Assembly (NCBI GenBank): GCA_029351405.1
Contig: GCA_029351405.1_4841.1
From: Escherichia coli
GTDB taxonomy: Bacteria; Pseudomonadota; Gammaproteobacteria; Enterobacterales; Enterobacteriaceae
DNA length: 64,000 bases
Reading direction: 5' to 3' (one strand)
Part shown: in pieces, positions 22,341 through 62,337 of the stretch
Layout: every line of letters starts with the position of its first letter
Position numbering within the stretch: the first letter of the stretch is position 1
The notes under the pieces: generated by a model
What the model was told of the DNA's origin: nothing
Databases searched by the model: none
What the model saw: only the letters and a program-made list of their open reading frames with translations
Made by a program: the position numbers and the translations under genes

Positions 22341-22351
22341 GGGGTATTTAG
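22341..22351 (-). promoter_or_regulatory. late-promoter-like motif CTAAATAcccc
   Basis: Minus-strand CTAAATACCCC about 25 nt upstream of the UvsW-like start. Confidence 0.45.
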
Positions 22352-23094
22352 TGATCCGGCCAGACTCCGTTTTGTTCTTTATCCATGCGATGATACAGAC
22401 GAACACGCTCAAACATCTTTGTCAGAATGTCATCACGGTTGAACTCAATGATGGTTGGTAGAGGGGAAGACTCGTTGGCAATCACGTTGATGAGGCGGGT
22501 GATCTTGACACCGAACATCTGCTGGAACATGACCGAATATAAACACAGCTGGATACTGTAATCCTCGATCATGCCCCGCGTCTTCATAGTGTTCGATGTC
22601 TTGAAGTCGATGACAGCAGGTTTACCCTCATAAACCCCGATAAGGTCTACACGACCTGCAAGACCAAGCACCTCGCTATATAATGGGATCTCCTGAGCAT
22701 AGATCTTTGTCATCTTGTTCAGGTAAGGGAACAGCTGCTTGAACATGAACATGTATTCGCCAGCCGCTTCCAACACTTCTTTCATTGGGCGGTTCTTTAG
22801 ATACAGTTCACACGCAAGGTGCAGCTTCTCCCCTCGGTCAGCACAGCGCATGGTCTCAAGATCAGCGGCCTCTGCGCCCAGCTTCTTCCTCCAAGACTCA
22901 AGCCATTCATGATCTCCAGTGCGTCCCAGCATAGTCGTGACGGATGTCAGTTTAACACCAGACGGTGAAACGTAATGACGACCATTCTCCGTCGTAACAC
23001 ACTCCAGTTCCTTGTAAGGAAGTTCGTATTGCTGGAATGTGTAATGACGGTTTTCGAAGTCATTCAGCTTGCGTAGATCCTGGAGAGATGCCAT
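22348..23094 (-). CDS. PD-(D/E)XK (RecB/Cas4-like) nuclease
   Basis: 248 aa; GRVDLIGVYEGKPAVIDFKTS gives a D ... D-x-K catalytic arrangement. Confidence 0.55.
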   Translation of the reverse strand: MASLQDLRKLNDFENRHYTFQQYELPYKELECVTTENGRHYVSPSGVKLTSVTTMLGRTGDHEWLESWRKKLGAEAADLETMRCADRGEKLHLACELYLKNRPMKEVLEAAGEYMFMFKQLFPYLNKMTKIYAQEIPLYSEVLGLAGRVDLIGVYEGKPAVIDFKTSNTMKTRGMIEDYSIQLCLYSVMFQQMFGVKITRLINVIANESSPLPTIIEFNRDDILTKMFERVRLYHRMDKEQNGVWPDH

Positions 23095-23109
23095 TATGTG
23101 TGATCCTCG

Positions 23110-23562
23110 TTATACACCATCAATATATTTTCTCCACTCAATAGCATTTTTCACTTCGTATCCCAGTTTGTTCAGGCGATCCAAACAAGTCTCTATGAAC
23201 TTGACTTTTGCTTTTTGTTCTTGTAACAGAACAGACAACTCCACATAGTCATCGTCTGCTTTGACCCATGTATCCAGGTCAGACTTCAGGGGGCGAACCT
23301 TCAGGGGGCGCTCTGCGTAGATGTTAGGGGGTAACTCCCCTGCATAGTAGCGGCGCAGATAGAGATCGATCTGGCGGAAGCGTCCGTTGAGAAATTCAAG
23401 ATAACGCCCCTCGCGCAGATAATGCCGCTGTACAGCCATCCAAGAGCGCCCGATTTTCAGCGAGATCTGGTCAAGGTTCATGTCTTCTGGGTCCACTGTG
23501 ATCAGCGGCTCCAGTTCGTTCATGATGTCCTCGGTAGCCATTGTCTGTAGTTGTTCTTTCAT
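23110..23562 (-). CDS. UvsY-like recombination mediator (tentative)
   Basis: 150 aa, next to the UvsW-like gene as in T4; weak resemblance of the C-terminal helical region to UvsY. Confidence 0.4.
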   Translation of the reverse strand: MKEQLQTMATEDIMNELEPLITVDPEDMNLDQISLKIGRSWMAVQRHYLREGRYLEFLNGRFRQIDLYLRRYYAGELPPNIYAERPLKVRPLKSDLDTWVKADDDYVELSVLLQEQKAKVKFIETCLDRLNKLGYEVKNAIEWRKYIDGV

Positions 23563-23592
23563 AAAATATCCCAGCTTGTCAATGTCATAGAA

Positions 23593-24105
23593 TTATACCG
23601 CATTTCGTGGATTAGAATCAATCGCCTTCCCACCAGATAGTGGAACCAGCTGTTGGAACTTGAAGGTCACTGTCGTCACCAGCTGAGGTACAGCCGCGTC
23701 TACGTCCACCAGTACGTTGTCCAAAGCAGTCGGGCGGGCTTCCTCCAGCACGAGAGTGAGGCCAATCGGTCGGTTGAGGTTATCCAGCAATTCAATGGTA
23801 ATGTCCTTGCTGACAGGCAAATCCTTGCCGACGTTGCTGGTAATCCATTGGTGGATCTGTAACCATGATTTCCAGTCCTCGTCTATAACGAAAGTAAATA
23901 CGACGGGATCATAGGTTAAACGCTCTGAAGGTATAGAAACCAACACGTCACCAGGAGACGGACCATCGATGCCTTCGGAGTACACCCCTGGTATACTGAA
24001 GTCGTGGATGTTACGGGTTAGGAGTACAAGGTCTCCGATAGTCAGACGCCACTTATCGGACGCCGCGAAATTAGGGTTTTCGTTCTTAAATTGTACGTTG
24101 GACAT
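23593..24105 (-). CDS. hypothetical protein (170 aa; N-terminus uncertain)
   Basis: ATG 24105 with AAAGGTG RBS; the frame stays open upstream to 24408, so a longer form from ATG 24315/24318 is possible. Confidence 0.45.
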   Translation of the reverse strand: MSNVQFKNENPNFAASDKWRLTIGDLVLLTRNIHDFSIPGVYSEGIDGPSPGDVLVSIPSERLTYDPVVFTFVIDEDWKSWLQIHQWITSNVGKDLPVSKDITIELLDNLNRPIGLTLVLEEARPTALDNVLVDVDAAVPQLVTTVTFKFQQLVPLSGGKAIDSNPRNAV

Positions 24106-24784: not shown

Positions 24785-25513
24785 TTACTTCAGCGCGTTC
24801 TTCAGATTATCGGAACCGATGCTGTTGATGACACCTCCGGCGCAGATATCTTTCGCCCACTCTGAGATCACGTTGGCGAAAGAGAAGTTAAGACACTTAC
24901 CAACCATGTCTTGGATATGGGCTAACTCTGCTGCAATACCGTTCGTGATGTCCTGAGCAATAGAGGCTACTGATGCGACAGCAGTGTCGATGGCCTGAGT
25001 AACTTCAGCGGCCAGTGCCTGAATAGCATCAAGACCAGCACTGACACCCTGAGCTACCAACTCAGCCAGCTCATTCATCTTGTTTGTGATAGTTGTGAGA
25101 ACACTTTGCATTGTGTTGATCCACTGTTTGCCGAGGTTCTGAATAACCCCAAATGCATTATTGATCAGATCACAGTTGTTCGGTTCTCGACCTATAGACT
25201 TCAGGGCGGACTTATACGACACAGATGTACCGATGCGGGAATATGCCTCGTTCACTGACTGGTAGCCATAGTTGTTCAAAGTAGTGATGCTGTCGTTGGC
25301 TGAGTTGAACATTGCTGTAGATTCGTTGAGTTTGGCTGTAGTCAACCCACCTGCCGTCAGCGCTTCCTGAATCTGCGTATTTCCGGTGTTAGCCAGTGAC
25401 GCTGTAGTCGCCTTACCACTGGTGATTAACCCCTGTGAGGCGCTGCTGAGGGACGGGAGAGGATTGGTAAAGGCGTTGCCCTGCGATAGGGCGTCATAGA
25501 TCTGTGCGTTCAT
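24785..25513 (-). CDS. late-expressed Ala/Ser/Thr/Asn-rich protein, probably virion-associated
   Basis: 242 aa with composition typical of tail or whisker proteins; CTAAATAcccccc motif upstream. Confidence 0.5.
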   Translation of the reverse strand: MNAQIYDALSQGNAFTNPLPSLSSASQGLITSGKATTASLANTGNTQIQEALTAGGLTTAKLNESTAMFNSANDSITTLNNYGYQSVNEAYSRIGTSVSYKSALKSIGREPNNCDLINNAFGVIQNLGKQWINTMQSVLTTITNKMNELAELVAQGVSAGLDAIQALAAEVTQAIDTAVASVASIAQDITNGIAAELAHIQDMVGKCLNFSFANVISEWAKDICAGGVINSIGSDNLKNALK

Positions 25514-25536
25514 AAGAAAATACCCCCATGGATGAT

Positions 25537-25549
25537 GGGGGGTATTTAG
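25537..25549 (-). promoter_or_regulatory. late-promoter-like motif CTAAATAcccccc
   Basis: Upstream of the 242-aa gene start at 25513. Confidence 0.45.
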
Positions 25550-25552
25550 GGA

Positions 25553-25723
25553 TCATGGTAGTTTGTAAACGAAGTTGGACCAGAACTTACGAACAAACTT
25601 CTTGACATAAACCATTCGGTTGGCGTATTCCCCATCCTTCAGGTCATTGTAGGTCTCGATCCCTACCGCGCCCAAGAAGTACGCCGTGAAGATATAGCAG
25701 AACAGATTGATGACGACAAACAT
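25553..25723 (-). CDS. small hydrophobic protein (56 aa)
   Basis: Not in the ORF track (under 60 aa); ATG 25723 with GGAG RBS; hydrophobic N-terminus MFVVINLFCYIFTAYFLGAV. Confidence 0.3.
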   Translation of the reverse strand: MFVVINLFCYIFTAYFLGAVGIETYNDLKDGEYANRMVYVKKFVRKFWSNFVYKLP

Positions 25724-25764
25724 GATGTATCTCCGCTGTGTGTACTCAAATTATTTATGATATG

Positions 25765-26187
25765 TTACAAAAGACGCTTGGTCTTCGGCTTACCCATTAG
25801 AGTGATATCCACAGGGAGGCCAGCTTTCTTGCAACGGTTGATCATGTCCAGGGTGCCAGTGGACGAACCATCCCACATCGCAATCGGATACACTTCCAGC
25901 TTGGTCTGCCTGACGAGATCCAATGCCTTGTCTAACATGTCCTGATTGCGTTTGTTGCCCATCCCTTTCCCATACTTTTCATAATAGCTCGGAGGTATTG
26001 GCATAGGAGTGATATGAACATAATTGATTTCAGCCCAATCACGGCAAATCGTGTCGACACCCGTGGCCTCACCCTCAATCAGTGTATAGACCTCACGAGG
26101 ATCCAAGAGTTCGTCCAGCTTGGCGAATACCTTATCCCGCTCGGTGATTGAGCGGGAACCCGTAATGAGAACGATATACTTCTTCAT
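25765..26187 (-). CDS. SLOG/DUF2493-like Rossmann-fold protein (tentative)
   Basis: ORF trimmed to ATG 26187; IVLITGSRS ... EGEATGVD ... WDGSSTGT pattern resembles the DprA/LOG-like SLOG family. Confidence 0.4.
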   Translation of the reverse strand: MKKYIVLITGSRSITERDKVFAKLDELLDPREVYTLIEGEATGVDTICRDWAEINYVHITPMPIPPSYYEKYGKGMGNKRNQDMLDKALDLVRQTKLEVYPIAMWDGSSTGTLDMINRCKKAGLPVDITLMGKPKTKRLL

Positions 26188-26191
26188 AGAA

Positions 26192-26512
26192 TCACAGCGC
26201 CCCAAGATTGCCGATTACGTACAGGGAGCACAGAGGAGTGCCTGACGAACGAGGTTCGATCGTCATCCCGCTCAGGCGGATCAGTTCCAGTAAGCCGTCA
26301 GTGGTCTGATACGCGCGTGTCGAACCGTTCGGTCGATATAGCTCCAGCTCAGTTCGCCCTTCCTTTATTGCATTGCGAATGCGAGTGAACACGCTGTGGT
26401 CGCCGAATTTCTGTTTCAGAATATCCAGTTTGGTGGTCAGGCGGCGACGCGATTTGCGCGCACGAGGGTTCTCTTTTACGACCGCTTCTAAAATCGGGAT
26501 GCTGTTAGTCAT
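26192..26512 (-). CDS. hypothetical protein (106 aa)
   Basis: ATG with AGAGGA RBS; sigma70-like promoter about 150 nt upstream. Confidence 0.45.
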   Translation of the reverse strand: MTNSIPILEAVVKENPRARKSRRRLTTKLDILKQKFGDHSVFTRIRNAIKEGRTELELYRPNGSTRAYQTTDGLLELIRLSGMTIEPRSSGTPLCSLYVIGNLGAL

Positions 26513-26660
26513 GATAAAGTCCTCTATTTGTAGGGGATAGGGTATGCGGTTAACATACCCTGTTCAAAGGTTTAGAACAAATTGCTGCAATGTTACTTTG
26601 TAACGAGAGTGGTGATAGTTCCTTCATTTCAGAGTCAGTGTTGTGCTGCTTATGGAATGA

Positions 26661-26689
26661 AGTATATGGGGTTTATTGAAGAAGTAAAC
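26661..26689 (-). promoter_or_regulatory. sigma70-like promoter (GTTTAC-17 nt-TATACT)
   Basis: Minus-strand GGGGTTTACTTCTTCAATAAACCCCATATACT upstream of the 106-aa gene. Confidence 0.35.
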
Positions 26690-26713
26690 CCCGTTTATTG
26701 AATAAATTTAAAT

Positions 26714-26950
26714 TTATTTGAAGCGATCAGGAAGGGTGTCGTGAACCTCGGCGCTCAGCACCAGAAACTTACCATCCGTCGTTGGGAAGCAATAGTCTTT
26801 CTTGATGTGACGCAAGTGTTCAGCTACAGCTGCCACGCAGTCATCTGTCACGTCGGTCTTCTCACCAACCCACATGCTGGTTTTAGTGTTCAACCTGCCC
26901 TGGAATATAGTACCAGTGAGAGGACTTGTGCCGATCTTTTTGATAATCAT
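26714..26950 (-). CDS. hypothetical protein (78 aa)
   Basis: ATG with GAGGTC RBS. Confidence 0.45.
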   Translation of the reverse strand: MIIKKIGTSPLTGTIFQGRLNTKTSMWVGEKTDVTDDCVAAVAEHLRHIKKDYCFPTTDGKFLVLSAEVHDTLPDRFK

Positions 26951-26958
26951 GTTTGACC

Positions 26959-27402
26959 TCAGTTGTTAATGCGGAACAGTTGTGGATAACCACCTGGATG
27001 CCCTTCTCCGGTCACGAAGACCTCGTACCGGGCACCTTTAACCAAACCGGGCAAATTGCCTGAGTCGAGCAGATAGCGGATTTTATCCATAGTGTCCATC
27101 CAGGACTTAGCAGGTTCAGCTTCAGCCTCTCCACGATTGAGGACGAGTTCACCTTCAGAATAATACTTCCCGCTGTCCTTCATGTAGTACAGCTTGATAT
27201 GGATATACTGAGGGGATGGGACCAAACGCCAGCCGTCATCAATCAGATCCTGGCGATCATTATCCAGGGACTGGTAATCGATCTCACCAGACGCCAGACC
27301 ATAGCTGCGCATGTAGCGGAACTTCTCAACACGGTCTTTCACGTCAGAGATGAAGAACTCCTTCGCGGCTGGACTGATAAAAATGTATTTCTCTTTTGAC
27401 AT
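26959..27402 (-). CDS. hypothetical protein (147 aa)
   Basis: ORF trimmed to ATG 27402; GGAAGGAA RBS and CTATATC-ATG initiation motif. Confidence 0.5.
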   Translation of the reverse strand: MSKEKYIFISPAAKEFFISDVKDRVEKFRYMRSYGLASGEIDYQSLDNDRQDLIDDGWRLVPSPQYIHIKLYYMKDSGKYYSEGELVLNRGEAEAEPAKSWMDTMDKIRYLLDSGNLPGLVKGARYEVFVTGEGHPGGYPQLFRINN

Positions 27403-27419
27403 GATATAGTTCCTTCCTT

Positions 27420-27644
27420 TCAAAGAATGATGTGTTTGTCGATATCGGACTGCGTTGCAATCTCCCAGCGGACGATGTTCTCGGTTGTGATGAAATCACG
27501 GTTCAGGTGAGAGGCTGGCACATACACCAATGTGTTGACCATGAAGTAGCGCTGCTCATTGTTCCAGGAGTCAACATAAGCCTCAATAAGGCACACTTCG
27601 ATCACTTCGCCTTTCGGATTCTTCACAGTCTTTTTCAGATACAT
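27420..27644 (-). CDS. hypothetical protein (74 aa)
   Basis: ORF trimmed to ATG 27644 with GAGGG RBS. Confidence 0.4.
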   Translation of the reverse strand: MYLKKTVKNPKGEVIEVCLIEAYVDSWNNEQRYFMVNTLVYVPASHLNRDFITTENIVRWEIATQSDIDKHIIL

Positions 27645-27703
27645 GACACAGCCCTCGGTAGTAGACGGGGCAATAATACCTCTCACCCCGTTATTGAAAA
27701 CTG

Positions 27704-27904
27704 TTATCCTTCTTGTTCTTCCCAACCCCATTCATCTTCCCAAGACTGGCGAGGGGTCTTGCCCGCTTCGTAATCATCACGCCAGGCGTCGGCGTCGGCG
27801 GCTGAACCGCCCTGGCTTTTCGCGACTTTGCACAATACGTCGTGCCACTCACGGAAAGTGGAGTTGGCGACTGTGGTGTTTACAGAATCTTCTTTCAGGC
27901 TCAT
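27704..27904 (-). CDS. hypothetical acidic protein (66 aa)
   Basis: ATG 27904 with GAGGA RBS; Trp/Glu/Asp-rich C-terminus. Confidence 0.4.
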   Translation of the reverse strand: MSLKEDSVNTTVANSTFREWHDVLCKVAKSQGGSAADADAWRDDYEAGKTPRQSWEDEWGWEEQEG

Positions 27905-27963
27905 TGTGATTTCCTCGATTAATAGAGAGGGTAATAATACCCTCATGCAATCTTTGAAACTCT

Positions 27964-28296
27964 TTATCCAGCCAAAGTCATATTCTGGGAACCAACCCCA
28001 TCTTCACATTCTGGATGACATGAAGTGCCCAGTTTTTCATGGATCACATCCAGATGGGTAAAGATAGCGTCGATGATATCGTCTTGGTCAGACTGGACGT
28101 CAATCACCAAGCCGACCAGACCAGGCGCGGCCATTTCTTTATCTTCACCTTTCTGAGCGGTTGGGTAATCACCGTCGAGTTGGATACGGATGTTTCTGAT
28201 ATTAGTAAGGAGGTTGCACAAACGCTCTTTATGAGAACGAGCATTGACCAAGATTTGGGACACGGATTGTGTTGGTGATACGAGGTTGCTTGACAT
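27964..28296 (-). CDS. hypothetical protein (110 aa)
   Basis: ATG with AGGAG RBS; an 11-bp-stem hairpin lies immediately upstream. Confidence 0.45.
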   Translation of the reverse strand: MSSNLVSPTQSVSQILVNARSHKERLCNLLTNIRNIRIQLDGDYPTAQKGEDKEMAAPGLVGLVIDVQSDQDDIIDAIFTHLDVIHEKLGTSCHPECEDGVGSQNMTLAG

Positions 28297-28388
28297 GATT
28301 TATACTCCTGTTGTATGGTTGACCGTACAAGCATACAACAGGCAGGTGTATTGAACAACGCGGGTATTAAATCGACACGATAAAGGAA

Positions 28389-28616
28389 TTAACTCGGAAT
28401 GTGTCTAGCGATCTTCTTGTTGATGTCGTCTAGCAGAATATTCATCGTATCTTTGCAGACCTCTACAGCCAATATCGATTTGGAATTCATGAATGAGCTG
28501 AAGATACCAGATTTCAAACGCCTCAACTCCTTTTCCGCTTCTTCAATCTGTCCCATGATGTATTTCTTCGCGCCCTGTAGCTCTATAGCACGGATGTCTA
28601 TTTCTTTATCGTTCAT
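28389..28616 (-). CDS. hypothetical coiled-coil protein (75 aa)
   Basis: ATG 28616 with GGAGGTC RBS. Confidence 0.45.
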   Translation of the reverse strand: MNDKEIDIRAIELQGAKKYIMGQIEEAEKELRRLKSGIFSSFMNSKSILAVEVCKDTMNILLDDINKKIARHIPS

Positions 28617-28669
28617 GATGACCTCCAATTAGTTTGGCACATCATATAGCGAATCCACATAATGAAAAA

Positions 28670-28685
28670 CCCCGCCGAAGCGGGG
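28670..28685 (-). terminator. hairpin CCCCGC-CGAA-GCGGGG plus T-tract (after the capsid gene)
   Basis: Identical 16-nt hairpin also at 35331 and 48484. Confidence 0.6.
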
Positions 28686-28708
28686 TTTTGTAGGACCAGC
28701 CTGTTAGA

Positions 28709-30040
28709 TTAGAACAAGCCTTTGATCAGCCCTTTACGGAAGTACACGTTGCTGTCCTGGGCGATACCGTCCGCAGTCACATAGACCTGTGGATCCTGGT
28801 TCGCTGGGATCTGAACGAATGGGTTAGCACAAATCCCGTAGCGGGTCTTGAACGCCATACGTGGCGCGAAGGTGGTTTCACCCTGGGTGCGGTACATTTC
28901 CAGCGGCACATACGGCGCGAAGAAGATACCAGCATCCAGCGCGGTCGCGCCTTTGTATGCCAGGGTGATGTACTCTGCTACTGCATACGGGTCGATGTAA
29001 ACGCGCATGCCGTTAGACAGAACACCAGCGAAGGTCTGACCAGTTGGGTCAATCGCCAGCTTGGTGTTTTCCTGCAGCGCCGGAGCATAATCCAGCATGC
29101 CGGACATCGCCAGAGCGGATGCTACGTTCGGAGAGCACAGAACACGGTTGCCTTTACCACGACGGGTGTCAACACCGATGCCGTTCGCTTCAACTTCCAG
29201 CATGAAAGTCATGTACTTCCATTTTTCCAGCGCCCAACGACCGGAGATGTCAGTGGAGATGTCTACGATACCGTTGGTGCCGAATTTTTTGAAGCGTACT
29301 GCGCTGAAGTTCATGGTGCGGATAAACTCACGGTTCATCTCTGCCTGAATTTCAGTTACCATCACGTCGGACAGGATGCTGTCAACGTCTTCGCCGTGGA
29401 TCGCCATCATGTCCTGGCGCAGTTCGTGGCTGTAGTCAGCGTACAGGCCGCGAGACTTCGCAGTCACGGTTGCTTTCTGAACGGTGATACCGACACGTGC
29501 CCATGGGTTGGTGGTGGTGCCCAGCAGTTCAGCGTCGGTAGATGGCATGCCTTTACCGATGGTGGTGGTAGCAGCGCCGGAACCTTCGATCTCAGTCTGG
29601 GTAAAGCCAGATGGGTCGCCAGCCTGAGCAGTGCCGTCACCAGAATAGCCAGAATCAGCTTCCTGCATGAACAGTTCTTTACGGGACTGTGCAGTGTTGG
29701 AACCGTCTGCAACACCTTGGCGAGCACGCAGTGCGAAGATCTGACCGTCAGGACCAGACAGCGGCTGAACGCCGAAGAAGTCCATCGCGATGTTGACCGG
29801 AGCCAGACGTTTGGCCATGTCGATCAGGACTGGCTGCCATTTGCCCACAGAGGCGTTCACGGAGCCAGGAGCGTCGGATTCGCCCAGGTTTTTGGCGTTC
29901 CACTCAGCCTGGTTTTGCAGCAGACGGACGGCAACGTTTTCGGCAGAAAGCGGCTGGATGCTTTCAGATTCTTTCTGAAGAACCGGCAGCCACTGCTCGC
30001 GCATTTGTTCGGTAACAAGTTTCTTAGCCATGATGGTCAT
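28709..30040 (-). CDS. major capsid protein (T4 gp23-like)
   Basis: 443 aa; GVQPLSGPDGQIFALRA, KTRYGICANPFV and C-terminal YFRKGLIKGLF match conserved gp23 blocks; strong hairpin terminator downstream. Start may be ATG 30031. Confidence 0.9.
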   Translation of the reverse strand: MTIMAKKLVTEQMREQWLPVLQKESESIQPLSAENVAVRLLQNQAEWNAKNLGESDAPGSVNASVGKWQPVLIDMAKRLAPVNIAMDFFGVQPLSGPDGQIFALRARQGVADGSNTAQSRKELFMQEADSGYSGDGTAQAGDPSGFTQTEIEGSGAATTTIGKGMPSTDAELLGTTTNPWARVGITVQKATVTAKSRGLYADYSHELRQDMMAIHGEDVDSILSDVMVTEIQAEMNREFIRTMNFSAVRFKKFGTNGIVDISTDISGRWALEKWKYMTFMLEVEANGIGVDTRRGKGNRVLCSPNVASALAMSGMLDYAPALQENTKLAIDPTGQTFAGVLSNGMRVYIDPYAVAEYITLAYKGATALDAGIFFAPYVPLEMYRTQGETTFAPRMAFKTRYGICANPFVQIPANQDPQVYVTADGIAQDSNVYFRKGLIKGLF

Positions 30041-30122
30041 TCCTTACATTGATATTCAGTTAAGTTGAAATTACTTAGTAGTTCAAAATCAAGCCCCCTT
30101 TCGAGGGCTGTGGCTGCTAAAA

Positions 30123-31022: not shown

Positions 31023-31691
31023 TCAGCCCAGATGTTTCAATGCGATATCGAGGCGGCGCAGGAAGTCGTCTTCTAACTGAATATTGGTTTTCACCAATGA
31101 ATCGACCACATGCCCCTTAATGTCCTTAGGAACCCAAATTCCTGAAGATTCATCAAGCTGCCATTCCACAGATTCGCTCACAGCCTTTACATAACAAACT
31201 TGTCCAGAAGGACGGTCGACTGCATCAACAGCAGTGAGCATAAAGCCGGGTTGAACGTCATCATAGCCGTTCACTGACTTGGTCTCACCAAGGCCACGTG
31301 TAGACACGGCCAGGTTGAAGTCTGCTTCAGCCAGAGCACGAATGATCTGACCTTTCGGTGTATTCAGGATCCGCGCTCGACCGATAGCGTTGGTGCCTTC
31401 CCAGCGCAAAGATTCGGTTTTGAGTGCAGCGTGTTCGATATCGGGGAAAGGATAATCCGGATGCTTGAGTTCACCGATTGCACGACGATCCTGGATATAC
31501 TCTTTGTCGTATGCTTCGACAGCAGGGATACCCACCTTTTGGAGATCGTAGTTGCGACCATTACGGTTCACCTGGTTACACATCACGAATGGACCTTCGA
31601 TGTACATGGCTTTTCCGCCAGTAGCCGTGGCCGCTTCACCAATCTGAAGGTCTTTCCCTATCGCAGTGATCTCACGCAACAGTTTCATCAT
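31023..31691 (-). CDS. prohead core protease (gp21-like)
   Basis: 222 aa, the size and position of T4 gp21 (between gp68-like and gp22-like). Confidence 0.7.
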   Translation of the reverse strand: MMKLLREITAIGKDLQIGEAATATGGKAMYIEGPFVMCNQVNRNGRNYDLQKVGIPAVEAYDKEYIQDRRAIGELKHPDYPFPDIEHAALKTESLRWEGTNAIGRARILNTPKGQIIRALAEADFNLAVSTRGLGETKSVNGYDDVQPGFMLTAVDAVDRPSGQVCYVKAVSESVEWQLDESSGIWVPKDIKGHVVDSLVKTNIQLEDDFLRRLDIALKHLG

Positions 31692-33919: not shown

Positions 33920-33984
33920 GATTAAGTCCTCAACATTTTCTTGTAATTAGTGAGGGGGAATAAGATCCCCCAGCACTGAGGACA

Positions 33985-34518: not shown

Positions 34519-34543
34519 GGTCGTTCTCCTCTGAATAGTGTAA

Positions 34544-34551
34544 ATATTTAG
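34544..34551 (-). promoter_or_regulatory. late-promoter-like motif CTAAATAT
   Basis: About 28 nt upstream of the tail tube start at 34518. Confidence 0.45.
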
Positions 34552-34842
34552 TTTTGAAATAAATGGGGGTTAAAATACTCCAAAGTGAAGATATTTATTA
34601 TGTCATTCCCCGATAAAAATTATTCATGCTGGGAACGATGAAACGCAATCCGGGTTTGTTGGATAACATCCGACGACCGAAACTGAATGCCGCTCTTGGG
34701 TTGATAGTAAACTCAGGAAAGAGAAATTCCTTAAACTTGGATACGATGTAGAAGGTAAAACAGAGGATATGCTGGCGATAGAAGCCGGGTTGGGGCGTAT
34801 CTGGGGGTGTGGTCTTATCCGGTATGAACAGGAAAACTAAAA

Positions 34843-34858
34843 CCCCGCCTCAGCGGGG
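34843..34858 (-). terminator. hairpin CCCCGC-CTCA-GCGGGG plus T-tract
   Basis: Downstream of the inserted 118-aa gene. Confidence 0.5.
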
Positions 34859-34865
34859 TAAACTA

Positions 34866-35222: not shown

Positions 35223-35269
35223 GATATAGATCCTTCGTTTCAAGTTGGTGTCGTACTGCTTATGTTTAG

Positions 35270-35298
35270 AATTATACGTGAGTTATTGAAGAAGTAAA
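35270..35298 (-). promoter_or_regulatory. promoter-like element (CTTTAC-17 nt-TATAAT)
   Basis: Minus-strand CTTTACTTCTTCAATAACTCACGTATAAT upstream of the inserted 118-aa gene. Confidence 0.35.
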
Positions 35299-35330
35299 GT
35301 AATTCAATAAAATAATCTGGAAAATTTAAA

Positions 35331-35346
35331 ACCCCGCCGAAGCGGG
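35331..35346 (-). terminator. hairpin CCCCGC-CGAA-GCGGGG plus T-tract (after the sheath gene)
   Basis: Same hairpin as at 28670. Confidence 0.6.
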
Positions 35347-35355
35347 GTTTGTTTA

Positions 35356-37292: not shown

Positions 37293-37300
37293 ATATTTAG
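37293..37300 (-). promoter_or_regulatory. late-promoter-like motif CTAAATAT
   Basis: About 45 nt upstream of the tail sheath start at 37251. Confidence 0.45.
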
Positions 37301-40911: not shown

Positions 40912-41562
40912 TTATTCTCCAAAGTCGATCTTCATATTGTCTGTTGCAAGCCCCTTCTCAAGATCATCTGCTAAAGCATTGTCGGTCTGTAGAGAAGAAT
41001 CCTTGTACACGTCCGGTTCGTTCTCTTCGTCCAAGATGGACAGACGTTTGTCAATATCGTCGATCTCCGGAACGCCCGTATCGAAGTTTTCGTTGCCGTA
41101 CTGGAACAACGTGCACGGCAGAGAGAACGTATACCATTTGCCAAATTGCATGAAGTCTTCATCGTTGTTCGGGTTGTTGACCTTGAAGATCTTGTTCGCC
41201 AGTGGTAGATAGATCAGGTCACCTTCCTGAGGTTGTTGTTCAATCCCAACACCGTTGCCTATCACCTCGGCAAATCGGCGGCGCGAGATAGAGAACGTCA
41301 CTTCGTCTTGCAATTGGATACCCCCAAACTTCTCCCACATCTGGGTGTTGAAGCCCTGATAATCCTGCATGTACGCTTCGATGTCGAACGCCTGGTCGAA
41401 CCTGTGGTTAGCATCGTTGGTGATAGGAAATTTTTCAACGATGGAACGGGGTATATACTTGATGTCTATCCCGCGCAACTCAATCATTTCCTGTACCAAA
41501 TCTTCAATCAGCTTCTGTGTGCCTTGGTGATTGGTGGCGTTGAAATATTTAGAAGTGGCCAT
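40912..41562 (-). CDS. neck protein (gp14-like, by synteny)
   Basis: 216 aa; late-promoter motif upstream. Confidence 0.4.
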   Translation of the reverse strand: MATSKYFNATNHQGTQKLIEDLVQEMIELRGIDIKYIPRSIVEKFPITNDANHRFDQAFDIEAYMQDYQGFNTQMWEKFGGIQLQDEVTFSISRRRFAEVIGNGVGIEQQPQEGDLIYLPLANKIFKVNNPNNDEDFMQFGKWYTFSLPCTLFQYGNENFDTGVPEIDDIDKRLSILDEENEPDVYKDSSLQTDNALADDLEKGLATDNMKIDFGE

Positions 41563-41583
41563 ATCGATACCCTCAATTTTGAA

Positions 41584-41592
41584 GGTATTTAG
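41584..41592 (-). promoter_or_regulatory. late-promoter-like motif CTAAATACC
   Basis: About 25 nt upstream of the gp14-like start at 41562. Confidence 0.4.
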
Positions 41593-48061: not shown

Positions 48062-48094
48062 TTTGATGCTCCATCGATAGGTGCCATTATAGAG

Positions 48095-48102
48095 ATATTT
48101 AG
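48095..48102 (-). promoter_or_regulatory. late-promoter-like motif CTAAATAT
   Basis: About 35 nt upstream of the 1612-aa gene start at 48061. Confidence 0.45.
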
Positions 48103-53177: not shown

Positions 53178-53184
53178 TTGAAGA

Positions 53185-53223
53185 TACCCCATAGAGGATT
53201 TGCCAATATGGGGTATTTAGTGA
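53185..53223 (-). repeat. 39-nt leader repeat, copy A
   Basis: TACCCCATAGAGGATTTGCCAATATGGGGTATTTAGTGA, identical to 55365-55403; contains the late-promoter motif and inverted repeat CCCCATA/TATGGGG. Confidence 0.8.
53211..53220 (-). promoter_or_regulatory. late-promoter-like motif CTAAATACCC within the 39-nt leader repeat
   Basis: Upstream of the tailspike gene starting at 53177. Confidence 0.5.
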
Positions 53224-55359: not shown

Positions 55360-55364
55360 GATAA

Positions 55365-55403
55365 TACCCCATAGAGGATTTGCCAATATGGGGTATTTAG
55401 TGA
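55365..55403 (-). repeat. 39-nt leader repeat, copy B
   Basis: Identical to 53185-53223; 5 nt upstream of the tailspike start codon. Confidence 0.8.
55391..55400 (-). promoter_or_regulatory. late-promoter-like motif CTAAATACCC within the 39-nt leader repeat
   Basis: Upstream of the tailspike gene starting at 55359. Confidence 0.5.
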
Positions 55404-58434: not shown

Positions 58435-58467
58435 TTCAAATACCCCTAAATGTGTTCGTTTCATCTA

Positions 58468-58478
58468 GGGGTATTTAG
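58468..58478 (-). promoter_or_regulatory. late-promoter-like motif CTAAATACCCC
   Basis: Upstream of the tailspike gene starting at 58434. Confidence 0.5.
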
Positions 58479-59671: not shown

Positions 59672-59673
59672 TT

Positions 59674-60528
59674 TTAACTCCTTGAACTTTCTAGGAATAC
59701 AGTAAACCCAGCAGGATGGAAGTGCTGACGGAAGACGCGATCAAACACACCTTCAAAATCAGATACGTTGCCAGGAACTCTTATCACATACGTGAATTCA
59801 TCATAGTAGTAATCGTCACGCATTCCTGTCGCGCCGTCACATTCAAAGTTGTCGTCCAGGCCACCAATTTCTTCCTTGGGATAATACACACTCACTGGGC
59901 AACCAAAGTAAATCCAGAAGAACAATTCAATCGCTTTCTTCGTCCCGCGAATGCGATAAATGTGTTTAAGTAACTTCAACCAGCGTACATGGTCCAGTGT
60001 CCGGCGTTCAGTTCCCTCGACATACACAGAGAGAGTGTCTCCGTCTGAAGTCACCAAACTGTCCGAACCAACTGGCACAAACTTCCCGAACTCCAGGAAG
60101 GACTTATCAACCGTTCTCTGGAATCCAAAATCAGCATACCAATCGTCGATGCGTTCGTTCTTGTCTTCCATTGAGATTAATGGCCGACCGTCCACGTCCA
60201 GCAAATCTTCGAAGTCTAGCGCCATCATGTTCTCAAACGTGCGCGTCAGGAACTTGTCTTCCAAGAAGTCTTTGGCCTCAGTACCTGGCGTCTTGCGCTT
60301 CTTGATGTCAATCAACTGCTCAATAGGAGACTGATCCGTATTTGGGTTCACCCAACCACCAGTGTCTGCCAGATACGCCAAGATCTCCTCTTCGGTGAAT
60401 CCCTGCTGGCGATACAACCAGTTGAAGAACGTATCCATAAACTCGATGAATACTGGGAATTCATTCTGGTAAAACAATGGGGTTTCATATTTCACCCCAT
60501 TGTGTCCGTTATTAAGATCTTTGGACAT
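59674..60528 (-). CDS. baseplate-associated protein (tentative)
   Basis: 284 aa; GGAGGTG RBS; translationally coupled between the gp6-like gene and the fibre gene. Confidence 0.45.
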   Translation of the reverse strand: MSKDLNNGHNGVKYETPLFYQNEFPVFIEFMDTFFNWLYRQQGFTEEEILAYLADTGGWVNPNTDQSPIEQLIDIKKRKTPGTEAKDFLEDKFLTRTFENMMALDFEDLLDVDGRPLISMEDKNERIDDWYADFGFQRTVDKSFLEFGKFVPVGSDSLVTSDGDTLSVYVEGTERRTLDHVRWLKLLKHIYRIRGTKKAIELFFWIYFGCPVSVYYPKEEIGGLDDNFECDGATGMRDDYYYDEFTYVIRVPGNVSDFEGVFDRVFRQHFHPAGFTVFLESSRS

Positions 60529-62290
60529 AACGCACCTCCGGCTCCACAGTTACAGCACCGATGCGGAGCACCTGATTCTGTGTGGCCTGAATGTTCTGGT
60601 CAAGACCGTCTGGAGACACAATTATTGTCACACCCTCAGTGTTGTAGTTGGATACTATGATACGCTGGAGTTCAACAACGCCAGTCACATAATCAACCGT
60701 TCCAACAGCTTGTACCAGATATTCCTTGGTCGTGTCTGTTGTACTCACCTTGTACATATTCAGGACACCACTGACGTCGCGTATGTAGTAAGTGAATTCG
60801 ACCTCGGCCGGAAGCGGCTTAAACCCACTGATACGCACAGAACCAGACGCAATTGAGCGCCCATAATCGAATGTGAAGCTGTCCAGCACCCCATAGTCTG
60901 GCTTGAAATGGCGCTTATACTTCACAGAAGTGATGTTTGACACTATCGATCTGTCCATGTCGGTGATGGCCGACTGTAACTGCTCTTTATCGAACAGTTC
61001 GTCGAATCCTTCTAGATTCCCCAAACCCCAGTTGACAACACCGTTCTTCACGACTGTCTTCAACTGCTCTTCGGTATAGGACGTGGAAGTCGGATCCCAG
61101 AACACGCGGGTGGTGACATCAACATAAGTCAGTTCAGCGTCGACAATCTTGGGTGTGATCGTGCCCACATTGTACTTGTCCAACTTCGACACGATATCTG
61201 CCTTCTCAGCGTCCGAGAGCGCCTCACCAACAGAAGGTATCACAGCAATGTAAACGTATCCGGAGTCGGGCGGAGAGAGCGTGTCGCCGCCATATGCTTT
61301 GGCGCGGGAGACGTTGGAGAACAGACGCTCGGTCAACACAGCATAATCGACTTCGGCTACCGCCGCACCCTCAGTCTGATAAGCCAGCGGAGCAAGGCGC
61401 TTGATGTCCTCAATGCTCTCTGGGTCCTTACCACCGGAAGAACGTTCTGACACCAGCTCAACATCTACAAGGTTGAATCCCCCGATGGAAGACGCGGAGG
61501 ACAAGGCGGTAATATCATTGCCGTCTGCACCAGCTGTCTCCAGATACTGGAGATACACGACGTTCCCGTCTTCTACTCGCTTACAGATATACCCATCACC
61601 GAATTCGAACGTGTACATCCCGTCCAACCCCAGCTCAACGAAGTAAAGTTGCGCATACTGGCTCAAATCGAACGGGCTGACGTATCGTGAGAAGGTAGAC
61701 CGCACGTCAGATGTCTCAGATTCCTGTACCTGTACCACCATATGGTCGATGTCCACGGAAGAAGATGGTATCACATAGGTAGAGATCGCGCTGCCTTCCA
61801 CATCATAGGACTTGTACAGCCAGTTACCCTGTATGAGTTTGATGTTCTCGAACTTGTAAGAGCCGTCTACAAGAGAGGCACTCACAGGTTGGTCAACCGT
61901 GAAGTTATAGGATTTGCCATCCTTCACCCCAATGAACATCGCGCGGCGATCCATTACAATCGTGTCTGGAGCCGTGCTGGCGTCATATGGAGTGACTGTG
62001 ACGTTTGCGTACAGGTACGCTGCCTGGTAGTTGTGAGGGGTGTAAGATAAGAACCCCGCCGCCAGACCGACATTAGAACGCTGTTGAGCAGAGTGAAGAT
62101 GGCTTTCGCCATTCAGCATATTCTGCATGAACCCGATAGAGTTGGCATCCGAGGCCAAGATACGCACGATTGCACTGAGACCAGAACCTTCAAAGTCATA
62201 ATCCTTGAAAGTTGGATCAGCTTTCATGCGCTTCTTGATAAGATACTCGAAAGCCCTGACATCGAGTGAAGGGACTGTTTGCGTGGCCAT
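60512..62290 (-). CDS. baseplate wedge protein (gp6/J-like, tentative)
   Basis: ORF trimmed to ATG 62290 with GGAG RBS; about 590 aa; late-promoter motif upstream; first gene of the minus-strand structural block. Confidence 0.5.
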   Translation of the reverse strand: MATQTVPSLDVRAFEYLIKKRMKADPTFKDYDFEGSGLSAIVRILASDANSIGFMQNMLNGESHLHSAQQRSNVGLAAGFLSYTPHNYQAAYLYANVTVTPYDASTAPDTIVMDRRAMFIGVKDGKSYNFTVDQPVSASLVDGSYKFENIKLIQGNWLYKSYDVEGSAISTYVIPSSSVDIDHMVVQVQESETSDVRSTFSRYVSPFDLSQYAQLYFVELGLDGMYTFEFGDGYICKRVEDGNVVYLQYLETAGADGNDITALSSASSIGGFNLVDVELVSERSSGGKDPESIEDIKRLAPLAYQTEGAAVAEVDYAVLTERLFSNVSRAKAYGGDTLSPPDSGYVYIAVIPSVGEALSDAEKADIVSKLDKYNVGTITPKIVDAELTYVDVTTRVFWDPTSTSYTEEQLKTVVKNGVVNWGLGNLEGFDELFDKEQLQSAITDMDRSIVSNITSVKYKRHFKPDYGVLDSFTFDYGRSIASGSVRISGFKPLPAEVEFTYYIRDVSGVLNMYKVSTTDTTKEYLVQAVGTVDYVTGVVELQRIIVSNYNTEGVTIIVSPDGLDQNIQATQNQVLRIGAVTVEPEVRYVQRS

Positions 62291-62329
62291 GATAATCTCC
62301 ATCACCTGAGTTTGAATATGGTGTTGAAG

Positions 62330-62337
62330 ATATTTAG
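62330..62337 (-). promoter_or_regulatory. late-promoter-like motif CTAAATAT
   Basis: About 45 nt upstream of the gp6-like start at 62290. Confidence 0.45.

What the first reader, a model, noticed from the sequence alone, without database searches (positions are those of the whole stretch)
22341..62337. Recurrent CTAAATAcccc motif marks a late-promoter family
At least eleven minus-strand genes are preceded 25-45 nt upstream of their start by CTAAATA(C/T)C, often extended to CTAAATACCCC. They are the UvsW-like helicase, the 242-aa protein, scaffold, tail tube, sheath, gp14-like, the 1612-aa protein, three tailspikes and the gp6-like gene. The motif resembles the T4 late promoter TATAAATA and is absent from the early-looking small-gene region, where sigma70-like TTGACA/GTTTAC...TATAAT elements appear instead.
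Basis: partly seen in the sequence, partly recalled or inferred. Interest (0 to 1): 0.45.

Follow-up and report, generated by a model that had tools for sequence, protein, structure and literature searches.

The report
Late promoters, half hidden in hairpins
The repeated CTAAATA signal is the already published late-gene promoter of this phage family (Ackermannviridae), and its "CCCC" tail is best read as one arm of an RNA hairpin that hides the next gene's ribosome-binding site, the same trick phage T4 uses for its lysozyme gene.

Summary
CTAAATA occurs 12 times, all on the minus strand (4.55 expected over both strands). Eleven copies lie 23-42 nt before gene starts, and none lies in the early regions. 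The window is an Agtrevirus-like Ackermannviridae phage, about 98% identical to Escherichia phage AV101. The late-promoter reading is supported. The motif sits at orthologous sites in six genera, AV101 encodes gp55 and gp33 homologues, and the window itself encodes gp45. It is not new: "CTAAATAcCcc" is quoted as a regulatory motif in the genome paper of a related Ackermannviridae phage, and CTAAATA is the predicted late promoter of Aeromonas phage Aeh1.

- The conserved core is TAAATA. The major capsid (CTAAGTA) and portal (CTAATTA) promoters were missed.
- The C/T-rich tail is not promoter sequence. At six genes (three tailspikes, gp14, gp6, the 242-aa protein) it forms the 5' arm of a stable hairpin (-10 to -21 kcal/mol). 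The 3' arm is that gene's Shine-Dalgarno sequence, and the stems show compensatory changes.
- With T4-type spacing, late transcripts start inside the stem and escape it, as at T4 gene e.

Start sites are inferred, not measured. Interest is low to moderate.

The parts
62331..62337 (-). Late promoter core CTAAATA before the gp6-like baseplate wedge gene (ATG 62290)
   Evidence: Invariant in 6 phages.
62295..62331 (-). Leader hairpin. The arm ATCTTCA pairs with TGGAGAT, which holds the Shine-Dalgarno GGAG of gp6.
   Evidence: -11.6 kcal/mol, z = -2.7. An IME250 U-to-C change turns a G-U pair into G-C. P(SD unpaired) rises from 0.12 in read-through RNA to 0.55 in late-start RNA.
58472..58478 (-). 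Late promoter CTAAATA(CCCC) before the 998-aa tailspike in the TSP4 position (ATG 58434)
   Evidence: Conserved in 7 phages.
58437..58477 (-). Leader hairpin of 16 bp. TAAATACCCCTAGATG pairs with CATTTAGGGGTATTTG, and the 3' arm covers the Shine-Dalgarno AGGGG.
   Evidence: -21 kcal/mol, z = -8.1. The loop varies and the inner stem changes compensatorily: 2 pairs and CCCCTAGAA/TTCTAGGGG in Ea2809. P(SD unpaired) rises from 0.00 to 0.41.
55394..55400 (-). Late promoter CTAAATA(CCCC) before the 700-aa tailspike (ATG 55359)
55363..55397 (-). Leader hairpin. AATACCCCATA pairs with TATGGGGTATT, and the 3' arm is the Shine-Dalgarno sequence.
   Evidence: -17.5 kcal/mol, z = -5.5. The same design occurs in CBA120 and Ea2809 with different loops.
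53214..53220 (-). Late promoter CTAAATA(CCCC) before the 887-aa tailspike (ATG 53177)
53184..53216 (-). Leader hairpin. It is an identical 40-nt copy of the 55403-55364 block.
   Evidence: -16.3 kcal/mol, z = -5.2. The identical block is shown.
48096..48102 (-). Late promoter CTAAATA before the 1612-aa VriC-like structural protein (ATG 48061). A terminator lies just upstream at 48133-48148.
   Evidence: The CTCTAT/ATGGAG pairing is weak (z = -1.0).
41586..41592 (-). Late promoter CTAAATA before the gp14-like neck protein (ATG 41562)
41567..41588 (-). Leader hairpin. ATACCTTCA pairs with TGAGGGTAT, and the 3' arm is the Shine-Dalgarno sequence. The left arm is nearly the same as at T4 gene e (TAAATACCTTC).
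   Evidence: -10.2 kcal/mol, z = -4.5. T4 comparison. The hairpin is absent in Ea2809.
41546..41552 (-). CTAAATA inside gp14 codons 4-6. Judged a coding coincidence, not a promoter.
   Evidence: Not conserved in CBA120.
37294..37300 (-). Late promoter CTAAATA before the tail sheath gene (ATG 37251)
   Evidence: The TCTTTC/GAAGGA pairing is weak (z = -0.9).
34545..34551 (-). Late promoter CTAAATA before the tail tube gene (ATG 34518). No hairpin.
   Evidence: Relatives carry CTAATTA or CTAAATA at this site.
33944..33950 (-). Variant late promoter CTAATTA before the portal gene (ATG 33919).
   Evidence: It is orthologous to CTAAATA in Serratia phage 3M and Erwinia phage Ea2809.
31005..31011 (-). 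Late promoter CTAAATA before the scaffold gp22 gene (ATG 30977)
   Evidence: CTAAATACTGAAAA is invariant in 8 phages.
30072..30078 (-). Variant late promoter CTAAGTA before the major capsid gene (ATG 30040, or 30031 as relatives annotate it). It follows a terminator at 30092-30109.
   Evidence: It is orthologous to CTAAATA in 3M and Ea2809. Terminator.
25543..25549 (-). Late promoter CTAAATA(CCCCCC) before the 242-aa DUF7217 structural protein (ATG 25513)
   Evidence: The orthologous sites read TTAAATA, CATAAATA and AATAAATA in other genera.
25518..25547 (-). Leader hairpin. AAATACCCCC pairs with GGGGGTATTT, and the 3' arm is the Shine-Dalgarno sequence. It is followed by TTTTCTT, so it also looks like a terminator.
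   Evidence: -13.9 kcal/mol, z = -2.8. In 14 distinct sequences 100% of cells are paired, and 3 of 10 pairs carry compensatory double changes. The terminator scan also picks it up.
22345..22351 (-). Late promoter CTAAATA(CCCC) before the uvsW helicase gene (ATG 22319). Its TAA is the stop codon of the upstream nuclease gene.
   Evidence: A weak CCCA/TGGG stem (z = -1.0) is replaced in Ea2809 and 3M by stems of different sequence (z = -2.8 and -2.7).
25752..25759 (-). Candidate extra late promoter CATAAATA, 28 nt before the 56-aa gene (ATG 25723)
   Evidence: Not tested in relatives.
19459..20127 (-). gp45-like sliding clamp gene, a cofactor of T4-type late transcription. It is the only one of the three late-transcription factors encoded inside the window.
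   Evidence: PHROG 223, E = 1e-64. AV101 annotates the ortholog as a sliding clamp.

Best explanation
The window is the late-gene region of an Agtrevirus-like Ackermannviridae phage. It carries at least 13 T4-type late promoters. Each is a single -10-like element with the invariant core TAAATA, usually CTAAATA, and twice the variants CTAAGTA or CTAATTA. No -35 element is conserved. By inference, host RNA polymerase carrying the phage gp55-like sigma factor reads these elements together with gp33 and the gp45 clamp, and transcription starts at the A found 6-7 nt downstream.

The "cCcc" or pyrimidine-rich tail of the published motif is not needed for promoter function. The capsid, portal, tube and scaffold promoters all lack it. 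At six genes (three tailspikes, gp14, gp6 and the 242-aa DUF7217 protein) the last three bases of TAAATA plus the next 5-13 nt form the 5' arm of a stable hairpin, and the 3' arm is that gene's own Shine-Dalgarno sequence. A weaker version occurs at uvsW, sheath and the 1612-aa protein.

Transcripts that arrive from upstream contain both arms, fold, and hide the ribosome-binding site. At the 242-aa gene they may also terminate. Transcripts that start at the embedded late promoter begin inside the 5' arm, cannot fold, and are translated. Each such gene is therefore insulated from upstream transcription and expressed only from its own late promoter. This is the design proven for T4 genes e, soc, 49 and I-TevI and for Aeh1 mobE.

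Shown here: motif statistics, conservation, hairpin stability, covariation, and the factor genes. Inferred: the start-site position, gp55 dependence, and translational repression on long transcripts. The overall confidence of 0.6 combines about 0.9 that these are late promoters with about 0.6 that the hairpins act as described.
For: Promoter evidence:
- 12 of 12 copies are on the coding strand, and 11 of 12 lie within 60 nt upstream of starts (P = 7e-13).
- The motif is conserved at orthologous sites in six genera.
- An A occupies the 6th or 7th nt downstream at 13 of 13 sites.
- gp55 and gp33 are encoded in the 98%-identical phage AV101, and gp45 in the window.
- Literature support: PMC1524935, PMC7283392, PMC3121705.

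Hairpin evidence:
- Six leaders fold to -10.2 to -21 kcal/mol with z = -2.7 to -8.1.
- In read-through RNA the Shine-Dalgarno sequence has P(unpaired) of 0.00-0.19, rising to 0.41-0.55 when the RNA starts at the predicted +1.
- These six genes rank 1, 2, 3, 5, 6 and 9 of 67 genes for Shine-Dalgarno occlusion. Late-promoter genes differ from the rest at P = 2e-4.
- Each 5' arm pairs better with its own Shine-Dalgarno region than with those of other genes (permutation P = 1.4e-4).
- At the 242-aa gene, 10 pairs are 100% paired in 14 distinct sequences, and 3 pairs carry double compensatory changes: CAT/ATG, CAC/GTG and TGA/TCA.
- The TSP4 inner stem covaries.
- Loop length and sequence vary freely.
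- The split between genes with a hairpin and the hairpin-free capsid, portal, tube and scaffold genes is the same in the distant phages Ea2809 and 3M.
- Positive control: the T4 gene e leader, TTATAAATACCTTC...GGAGGTATTATG, gives -13.3 kcal/mol and z = -4.7 in the same pipeline. Its left arm is nearly identical to that of the window's gp14 leader.
- The T4 and Aeh1 mechanism is documented in PMC3014915 and PMC2988022.
- Early-type promoters at 27698, 28355 and 28666 can feed read-through into the 242-aa gene.
Against: - No transcription start sites or time-resolved transcripts exist for any Ackermannviridae phage in the searchable literature. The +1 position is carried over from T4 and Aeh1.
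- For the tailspike cluster the only upstream transcription I can identify is itself late. The classic purpose of blocking early translation therefore does not obviously apply there.
- Four hairpins (1612-aa protein, sheath, scaffold, uvsW) are no better than shuffled sequence in this window (z about -1).
- The gp14 and gp6 hairpins show no two-sided covariation, and the gp14 hairpin is missing in Ea2809.
- Covariation rests on two divergent lineages only.
- The hairpin at the 242-aa gene fits an intrinsic terminator equally well.
- Single-mismatch variants of CTAAATA are not strand-biased overall (52 vs 48). The capsid and portal variants therefore rest on orthology alone.
Confidence: 0.6

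Rival explanations
1. The motif is a late promoter. The hairpins are ordinary intergenic terminators or 3'-end stabilisers of the upstream genes, and they happen to overlap the promoter.
For: The hairpin at the 242-aa gene is followed by TATTTTCTT and is picked up by the terminator scan. Genuine terminators stand directly before the capsid and 1612-aa-protein promoters. In AV101 one CTAAATA sits in the loop of a terminator.
Against: Only the 242-aa hairpin has a U-run. The tailspike, gp14 and gp6 hairpins are followed by TATTAT, TATCGA or TATC. In every case the 3' arm is the Shine-Dalgarno sequence of the downstream gene, 7-9 nt before the ATG, and each 5' arm matches its own Shine-Dalgarno region best. 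Neither feature is expected of a terminator.
Confidence: 0.2
2. Late transcripts start at or before the 5' arm. The hairpin would then be a 5'-terminal stem-loop that protects late mRNAs from RNase E or 5'-end-dependent decay.
For: The hairpins begin within a few nt of the promoter core, and 5' stem-loops are known mRNA stabilisers (general knowledge). No start-site data exclude this reading.
Against: A start there would break the T4/Aeh1 spacing, in which the motif begins at -12 (PMC1524935). It would also ignore the conserved A at the 6th or 7th nt. Stems of 13-16 bp would permanently bury the Shine-Dalgarno sequence of essential tailspike genes (P(unpaired) 0.00-0.02). The most highly expressed late genes (capsid, tube, portal) have no such stem.
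Confidence: 0.1
3. The inverted repeats are DNA operators for a dimeric regulator that binds over the late promoter, comparable to I-TevI autorepression at its late promoter.
For: The palindromic arms overlap the promoter. I-TevI provides a precedent (PMC2988022).
Against: Arm spacing varies from 4 to about 16 nt between sites and between orthologs. Arm sequences differ between genes while staying complementary within each gene. That is the signature of RNA pairing, not of a fixed protein-binding site.
Confidence: 0.04
4. CTAAATA is not a promoter. It is a post-transcriptional signal in polycistronic late RNA, such as a nuclease processing site or a translational operator.
For: Its position 23-42 nt before start codons would also suit an RNA-level signal. 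regA is encoded in the window region.
Against: It closely resembles the T4 late promoter TATAAATA and the predicted Aeh1 late promoter CTAAATA. The phage family encodes gp55, gp33 and gp45. The motif follows strong terminators at the capsid and 1612-aa-protein genes, where a new transcript has to start.
Confidence: 0.03

Closest known systems
Regulatory motif CTAAATAcCcc, quoted for the Ackermannviridae phage EspM4VN (PMC7283392). From memory, it was first defined by Adriaenssens et al. 2012 for the proposed genus Viunalikevirus; that paper could not be read here.
   Same: The sequence is identical, the phage family is the same, and the motif sits at the same orthologous positions. The companion early-type motif TTCAAT-N14-TATAAT is also present and enriched.
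   Different: Nothing differs for the motif itself. The accessible papers do not say that the cCcc tail pairs with the Shine-Dalgarno sequence, or that the capsid and portal genes use one-base variants.
T4 late promoter TATAAATA (gp55, gp33, gp45) and the predicted Aeh1 late promoter CTAAATA (Nolan et al. 2006, PMC1524935)
   Same: A single -10-like element with the TAAATA core and no -35 element. It lies upstream of virion genes. The genome encodes gp55, gp33 and gp45 homologues. C at -12 matches Aeh1.
   Different: The T at -13/-12 of T4 is replaced by C at most sites. CTAAGTA and CTAATTA variants occur at the capsid and portal genes. Activity has not been measured.
Hairpin-embedded late promoters that sequester the ribosome-binding site: T4 e, soc, 49, I-TevI/II/III and segB, and Aeh1 mobE (PMC3014915, PMC2988022)
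   Same: The 5' arm of the stem overlaps or abuts the late promoter, and the 3' arm covers the Shine-Dalgarno sequence. Stability is similar (T4 e -13.3 kcal/mol against -10 to -21 here). The T4 e arm TAAATACCTTC/GGAGGTAT is almost the same as the window's gp14 arm TAAATACCTTC/GAGGGTAT.
   Different: Here the design sits on virion genes, including three tandem tailspike genes whose upstream transcription is probably also late. In T4 it sits on a lysis gene or homing endonucleases embedded in early operons. Function is untested here.

Membership tests
T4-type (gp55-dependent) late promoter | A single conserved -10-like element TATAAATA or close variant, with no conserved -35 element | tested here: met
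   TAAATA is invariant at 11 sites and in orthologs. Information content upstream of the motif is 0.1-1.1 bits per position and shows no -35 element.
T4-type (gp55-dependent) late promoter | Located on the coding strand just upstream of late (virion or late-function) genes | tested here: met
   11 of 12 copies lie within 60 nt upstream of starts of structural genes or uvsW (P = 7e-13). No copies occur in the early blocks.
T4-type (gp55-dependent) late promoter | The phage encodes the gp55 sigma factor, the gp33 co-activator and the gp45 clamp | tested here: met
   gp45 is in the window (PHROG 223, E = 1e-64). gp55 (PHROG 234, E = 3e-52) and gp33 (PF16805, E = 9e-18) are in the 98%-identical phage AV101. 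There gp55 lies about 1.2 kb beyond the position corresponding to the window's start, and gp33 about 27 kb beyond it. The window's own genome outside the 64 kb was not available.
T4-type (gp55-dependent) late promoter | Transcripts start 6-7 nt downstream, late in infection, and depend on gp55 and DNA replication | not testable with these tools
   Indirect evidence only: an A at the 6th or 7th nt at 13 of 13 sites. No start-site data for the family were found.
Regulatory motif CTAAATAcCcc reported in Ackermannviridae | The motif is present in a genome of this family | tested here: met
   5 full CTAAATACCCC copies and 12 core copies. The window is 98% identical to Aglimvirinae phages.
Hairpin-embedded late promoter with a sequestered ribosome-binding site (T4 e type) | A stable stem-loop that includes the Shine-Dalgarno sequence and/or the AUG | tested here: met
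   Six leaders have z = -2.7 to -8.1, with P(SD unpaired) of 0.00-0.19 in read-through RNA. Covariation is seen at the 242-aa gene and at TSP4. The test is not met at the capsid, portal and tube genes, and is weak at four others.
Hairpin-embedded late promoter with a sequestered ribosome-binding site (T4 e type) | The late promoter is placed so that late transcripts lack the 5' arm | tested here: inconclusive
   The geometry fits if +1 is the 6th nt after the motif, as in T4 and Aeh1. Only 0-5 nt of the arm would then be transcribed. The start site itself was not measured.
Hairpin-embedded late promoter with a sequestered ribosome-binding site (T4 e type) | Longer transcripts from upstream promoters read into the gene | tested here: inconclusive
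   Early-type promoters at 27698, 28355 and 28666 lie upstream of the 242-aa gene, and no other terminator is predicted between them and the gene. The tailspike genes follow one another without terminators, but their upstream promoters are late.
Hairpin-embedded late promoter with a sequestered ribosome-binding site (T4 e type) | Translation is repressed on the long transcripts and relieved on the late ones | not testable with these tools
   Needs reporter fusions or toeprinting.
Intrinsic (rho-independent) terminator | A G+C-rich stem followed directly by a U-run | tested here: not met
   The feature is met only by the 242-aa hairpin (CCCCC...GGGGG TATTTTCTT). The tailspike, gp14 and gp6 hairpins have no U-run.

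The most novel reading that the evidence does not exclude
Ackermannviridae use promoter-embedded anti-Shine-Dalgarno hairpins as translational insulators on tandem late genes. Each tailspike gene, and also gp14, gp6 and the DUF7217 protein, would be translated only from the transcript started at its own promoter. Read-through from the promoters upstream would then not inflate the output of downstream genes. That would fix the stoichiometry of the branched tailspike complex. It would also make each promoter-hairpin-gene unit a self-contained cassette that can be swapped between phages. The 40-nt leader is identical between two tailspike genes of the window and nearly identical across genera.
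Probability: 0.3. Interest if true: 0.45.

Novelty: new member of a known kind. Interest (0 to 1): 0.3.

Why it matters
The motif itself adds nothing new, because it is already reported for this phage family. Three practical points follow from the analysis.

- **Annotation.** Tools and readers that use CTAAATAcCcc as the promoter consensus will miss the strongest late promoters. The capsid, portal, tube and scaffold promoters lack the C-tail or carry one-base variants. The same consensus will also over-weight a tail that belongs to the mRNA leader.
- **Engineering.** People who swap or add tailspike genes in these phages should carry the whole promoter-hairpin-Shine-Dalgarno unit. Otherwise an inserted gene may be silent on read-through RNA or may upset expression of its neighbours. 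This kind of engineering is already practised; one study added the tsp2 promoter to its construct (PMC11414711).
- **Biology.** The analysis extends the T4 gene e type of "late promoter inside an anti-Shine-Dalgarno hairpin" to virion genes of a second phage family. It also gives a testable idea of how tandem late genes can be uncoupled.

Tried and rejected
- **Generic sigma-70 scan.** No enrichment in any third of the window.
- **One-mismatch variants of CTAAATA.** 52 on the minus strand against 48 on the plus strand, so there is no overall signal. Only the two variants supported by orthology (capsid and portal) were kept.
- **Pfam.** It did not recognise the gp45 or gp55 homologues. PHROGs did.
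- **The search for related loci with the 242-aa protein.** It returned only 9 close relatives. tblastn against phage records showed that the family's diversity was already covered by the six genera fetched, plus distant Felixounavirus homologues that were not used.
- **Pattern scan of viral contigs for CTAAATACCCC-N8-38-GGGGTA.** It returned more than 120 stretches. By my rough estimate many are chance matches in unrelated contigs, so they were not analysed.
- **Literature.** The 2012 Viunalikevirus paper, Miller et al. 2003 and Gibb & Edgell 2009 are not held. No Ackermannviridae transcriptome or start-site paper was found. The family review and the tailspike papers do not mention promoters or hairpins.
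- **DNA operator and 5'-stabiliser readings.** Both were considered and ranked low, for the reasons given under the rival explanations.
- **Technical limit.** Several fetched loci were not exported to the Python sandbox. Cross-phage comparisons were therefore made through DNA alignment references and pasted leader sequences.

Full report
**What the window is.** A 9-kb slice is 97.6-98.2% identical to Escherichia phages RPN242, A221 and AV101. [quoted passage not shown] Nearly all genes run on the minus strand. The order follows AV101: helicase, a block of small genes, regA, clamp loader, gp45, uvsW, uvsY, gp3, more small genes, capsid, scaffold, protease, portal, tube, sheath, terminase, gp15, gp14, gp13, the 1612-aa VriC-like protein, four tailspikes and the baseplate genes.

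**Checking the observation.**
- CTAAATA occurs 12 times, all on the minus strand. 4.55 are expected over both strands, and 0 of 100 shuffles reached 12.
- CTAAATAYC occurs 9 times against 0.52 expected.
The gap from motif end to ATG is 23-42 nt.
- The twelfth copy (41546-41552) lies in codons 4-6 of gp14 and is not conserved in CBA120.
- With a curated list of 72 genes, 11 of 12 copies fall in the 6.3% of the window that lies within 60 nt upstream of a minus-strand start (P = 7e-13). Density is 2.1 per kb in non-coding DNA and 0.03 per kb in coding DNA. No copy lies below 22,300 or in the small-gene block 25,560-28,700.
Those criteria were equal frequency in coding DNA and equal frequency on the opposite strand.

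Two corrections are needed.
- The longer pattern CTAAATA(C/T)C fits 9 genes, not 11.
- The early regions are not enriched for generic TTGACA-N16-18-TATAAT sites. They are enriched for TTCAAT-N14-TATAAT (22 matches against 5.1 expected). By my reading of the coordinates against the gene list, most of the 14 minus-strand hits lie a few tens of nt before gene starts.

**Is it a late promoter?** I fetched about 45 kb of the same region from seven relatives. These were AV101, MK-13 (Agtrevirus), XF4 (Limestonevirus), CBA120 (Kuttervirus), IME250 (Taipeivirus), Serratia phage 3M (Miltonvirus) and Erwinia phage Ea2809 (Nezavisimistyvirus). I then aligned the region upstream of each gene.
- The motif stands at the orthologous position in all of them while the flanks diverge.
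- The invariant part is TAAATA. At the 242-aa gene the preceding base gives TTAAATA in CBA120 and IME250, CATAAATA in 3M, and AATAAATA in Ea2809.
- Late genes elsewhere in AV101 use TATAAATA (gp54), CTTAAATA (gp2) and CATAAATA (gp5).
- Two late promoters were missed because they differ by one base. The major capsid gene has CTAAGTA (30072-30078) and the portal gene has CTAATTA (33944-33950). Both read CTAAATA in 3M and Ea2809.
- All 13 sites have an A at the 6th or 7th nt after the motif (P = 4e-5). This is where T4-type late transcripts start, and the Aeh1 motif is described as beginning at -12 (PMC1524935).
- The machinery is present. gp45 is in the window. gp55 and gp33 are in AV101, where gp55 lies about 1.2 kb beyond the position corresponding to the window's start.
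- The literature reports all three factors for AG3, CBA120 and ViI.

CTAAATA was proposed as the Aeh1 late promoter in 2006. CTAAATAcCcc, together with TTCAAT[N14]TATAAT, is quoted as a regulatory motif in the genome paper of the related phage EspM4VN (PMC7283392). In 2011 the late promoter of this group was still described as unidentified. From memory, the motif comes from the 2012 Viunalikevirus genus proposal, which I could not open.

**What the CCCC tail is.** Reading the leaders showed that the bases after TAAATA are complementary to the G-run that lies 7-9 nt before each ATG, which is the Shine-Dalgarno sequence.

Folding each leader from motif to ATG gave three groups:

| Gene | Energy (kcal/mol) | z-score |
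|---|---|---|
| TSP4 | -21 | -8.1 |
| TSP3 | -17.5 | -5.5 |
| TSP2 | -16.3 | -5.2 |
| gp14 | -10.2 | -4.5 |
| 242-aa protein | -13.9 | -2.8 |
| gp6 | -11.6 | -2.7 |
| 1612-aa protein, sheath, scaffold, uvsW | weak | about -1 |
| tube, capsid, portal | none | none |

Further tests of the pairing:
- In an RNA that reads through from 30 nt upstream, P(SD unpaired) is 0.00-0.19 for the six strong cases. It rises to 0.41-0.55 when the RNA starts at the 6th nt after the motif.
- Against all 67 minus-strand genes, the six rank 1, 2, 3, 5, 6 and 9 for Shine-Dalgarno occlusion. Late-promoter genes as a class differ from the rest (P = 2e-4).
- Each 5' arm pairs better with its own Shine-Dalgarno region than with those of the other late genes (permutation P = 1.4e-4). 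The effect is therefore more than pyrimidine-rich meeting purine-rich sequence.
- At the 242-aa gene, the 10-bp stem is 100% paired in 14 distinct sequences. Three pairs carry compensatory double changes: CAT/ATG, CAC/GTG in 3M, and TGA/TCA in Ea2809. The loop varies freely.
- The inner stem of TSP4 also changes compensatorily.
- At uvsW the weak CCCA/TGGG stem of the window is replaced in Ea2809 and 3M by stems of different sequence.
- The same division into hairpin genes and hairpin-free head and tail genes holds in Ea2809 and largely in 3M.

**Mechanism.** With T4-type spacing, the 5' arm occupies roughly -8 to +5. The late transcript then contains at most a few of its bases and cannot form the stem. 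Only longer transcripts from upstream can.

This is the arrangement proven for T4 genes e, soc, 49 and I-TevI and reported for segB and Aeh1 mobE (PMC3014915; PMC2988022). As a positive control I ran the T4 gene e leader through the same pipeline. TTATAAATACCTTC...GGAGGTATTATG folds to -13.3 kcal/mol with z = -4.7. Its arm, TAAATACCTTC/GGAGGTAT, is almost the same as the window's gp14 arm, TAAATACCTTC/GAGGGTAT.

For the 242-aa gene the logic matches T4. Early-type promoters at 27698, 28355 and 28666 drive the small genes that run into it. That hairpin also has a U-run, so it may terminate as well as mask.

For the tandem tailspike genes the upstream transcription is itself late. The likely role there is insulation of each gene from read-through. 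This part is the most speculative.

There is a suggestive pattern: promoters that directly follow a real terminator (capsid, 1612-aa protein, tube) lack a strong hairpin. The numbers are too small to test.

**Rival readings.**
- Terminators or 3'-end stabilisers: about 0.2. Only one hairpin has a U-run, and this reading does not explain why the 3' arm is always the Shine-Dalgarno sequence.
- 5'-terminal stabilising stem-loops: about 0.1. This would bury the ribosome-binding site of essential genes and break the T4 spacing.
- DNA operators: about 0.04. The spacing between arms varies, and arm sequences differ per gene while remaining complementary.
- An RNA-level signal rather than a promoter: about 0.03.

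**Verdict.** The added value has two parts. One is a corrected consensus: a TAAATA core and two extra promoters. The other is the reading of the cCcc tail as the anti-Shine-Dalgarno arm of T4 gene e-type hairpins. That is a new set of members of a known regulatory kind, and I did not find it described for this family. My confidence is about 0.9 that these are late promoters and about 0.6 that the hairpins act as described.

Noticed in passing
window 3573-35290 (for example 28330-28355, 28641-28666, 27673-27698, 23592-23617, 19434-19459) and 62594-62619 (+): The early-type promoter family TTCAAT(A)-N14-TATAAT is enriched: 22 matches at up to 2 mismatches against 5.1 expected. By my reading of the coordinates, most of the 14 minus-strand hits lie a few tens of nt before gene starts. 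There is one perfect copy on the plus strand before the divergent gene 62656-63225. The generic TTGACA-TATAAT scan shows no enrichment.
   Followed up: partly
window 55364-55403 and 53184-53223 (-): The leaders of two adjacent tailspike genes share an identical 40-nt block (TCACTAAATACCCCATATTGGCAAATCCTCTATGGGGTAT). Nearly the same leader stands before tailspike-type genes in CBA120 and in the distant Erwinia phage Ea2809. It could serve as a recombination boundary for tailspike cassettes.
   Followed up: partly
window 48086-48126 (-): The late promoter of the 1612-aa protein is overlapped by two sigma-70-like elements. One is TTCTAT-N14-TATACT, whose -10 runs into CTAAATA. The other is TTGGCT-N16-TATAAT, whose -10 lies just downstream. 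The gene might therefore also be transcribed before the late phase.
   Followed up: no
window 34539-35350 (-): The slot between sheath and tube is variable. AV101, XF4, CBA120, IME250 and 3M carry a homing-endonuclease or hypothetical gene here, while the window has only a 125-aa ORF (34866-35243) flanked by two terminators. The tube promoter region also differs from the closest relatives (CTAAATATTTACAC against CTAATTAGAATTG). A second candidate, AATAAATA, lies at 34592-34599.
   Followed up: no
L018 (AV101 44000-86000) about 31440-31470 (-): A CTAAATA copy sits in the loop of a terminator-like hairpin (CCCCC-TAAATACA-GGGGG followed by TTTCTTTTT) before a MobD.6-like gene. This may be another way of combining a terminator with a late promoter.
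   Followed up: no
window 22345-22351 (-): The TAA inside the uvsW promoter CTAAATA is the stop codon of the upstream PD-(D/E)XK nuclease gene (22348-23094). The promoter therefore overlaps the end of a coding region.
   Followed up: yes
window 24785-25513 (-): The 242-aa protein is a full-length DUF7217 (PF23854, E = 3e-91). The XF4 record labels its ortholog an "unknown structural protein". tblastn finds homologues at 26-31% identity across Felixounavirus-type phages.
   Followed up: partly
window 30031-30040 (-): The major capsid ORF has two in-frame ATGs. Relatives annotate the second one (30031), and its spacing from the AAGGA Shine-Dalgarno sequence is better.
   Followed up: no
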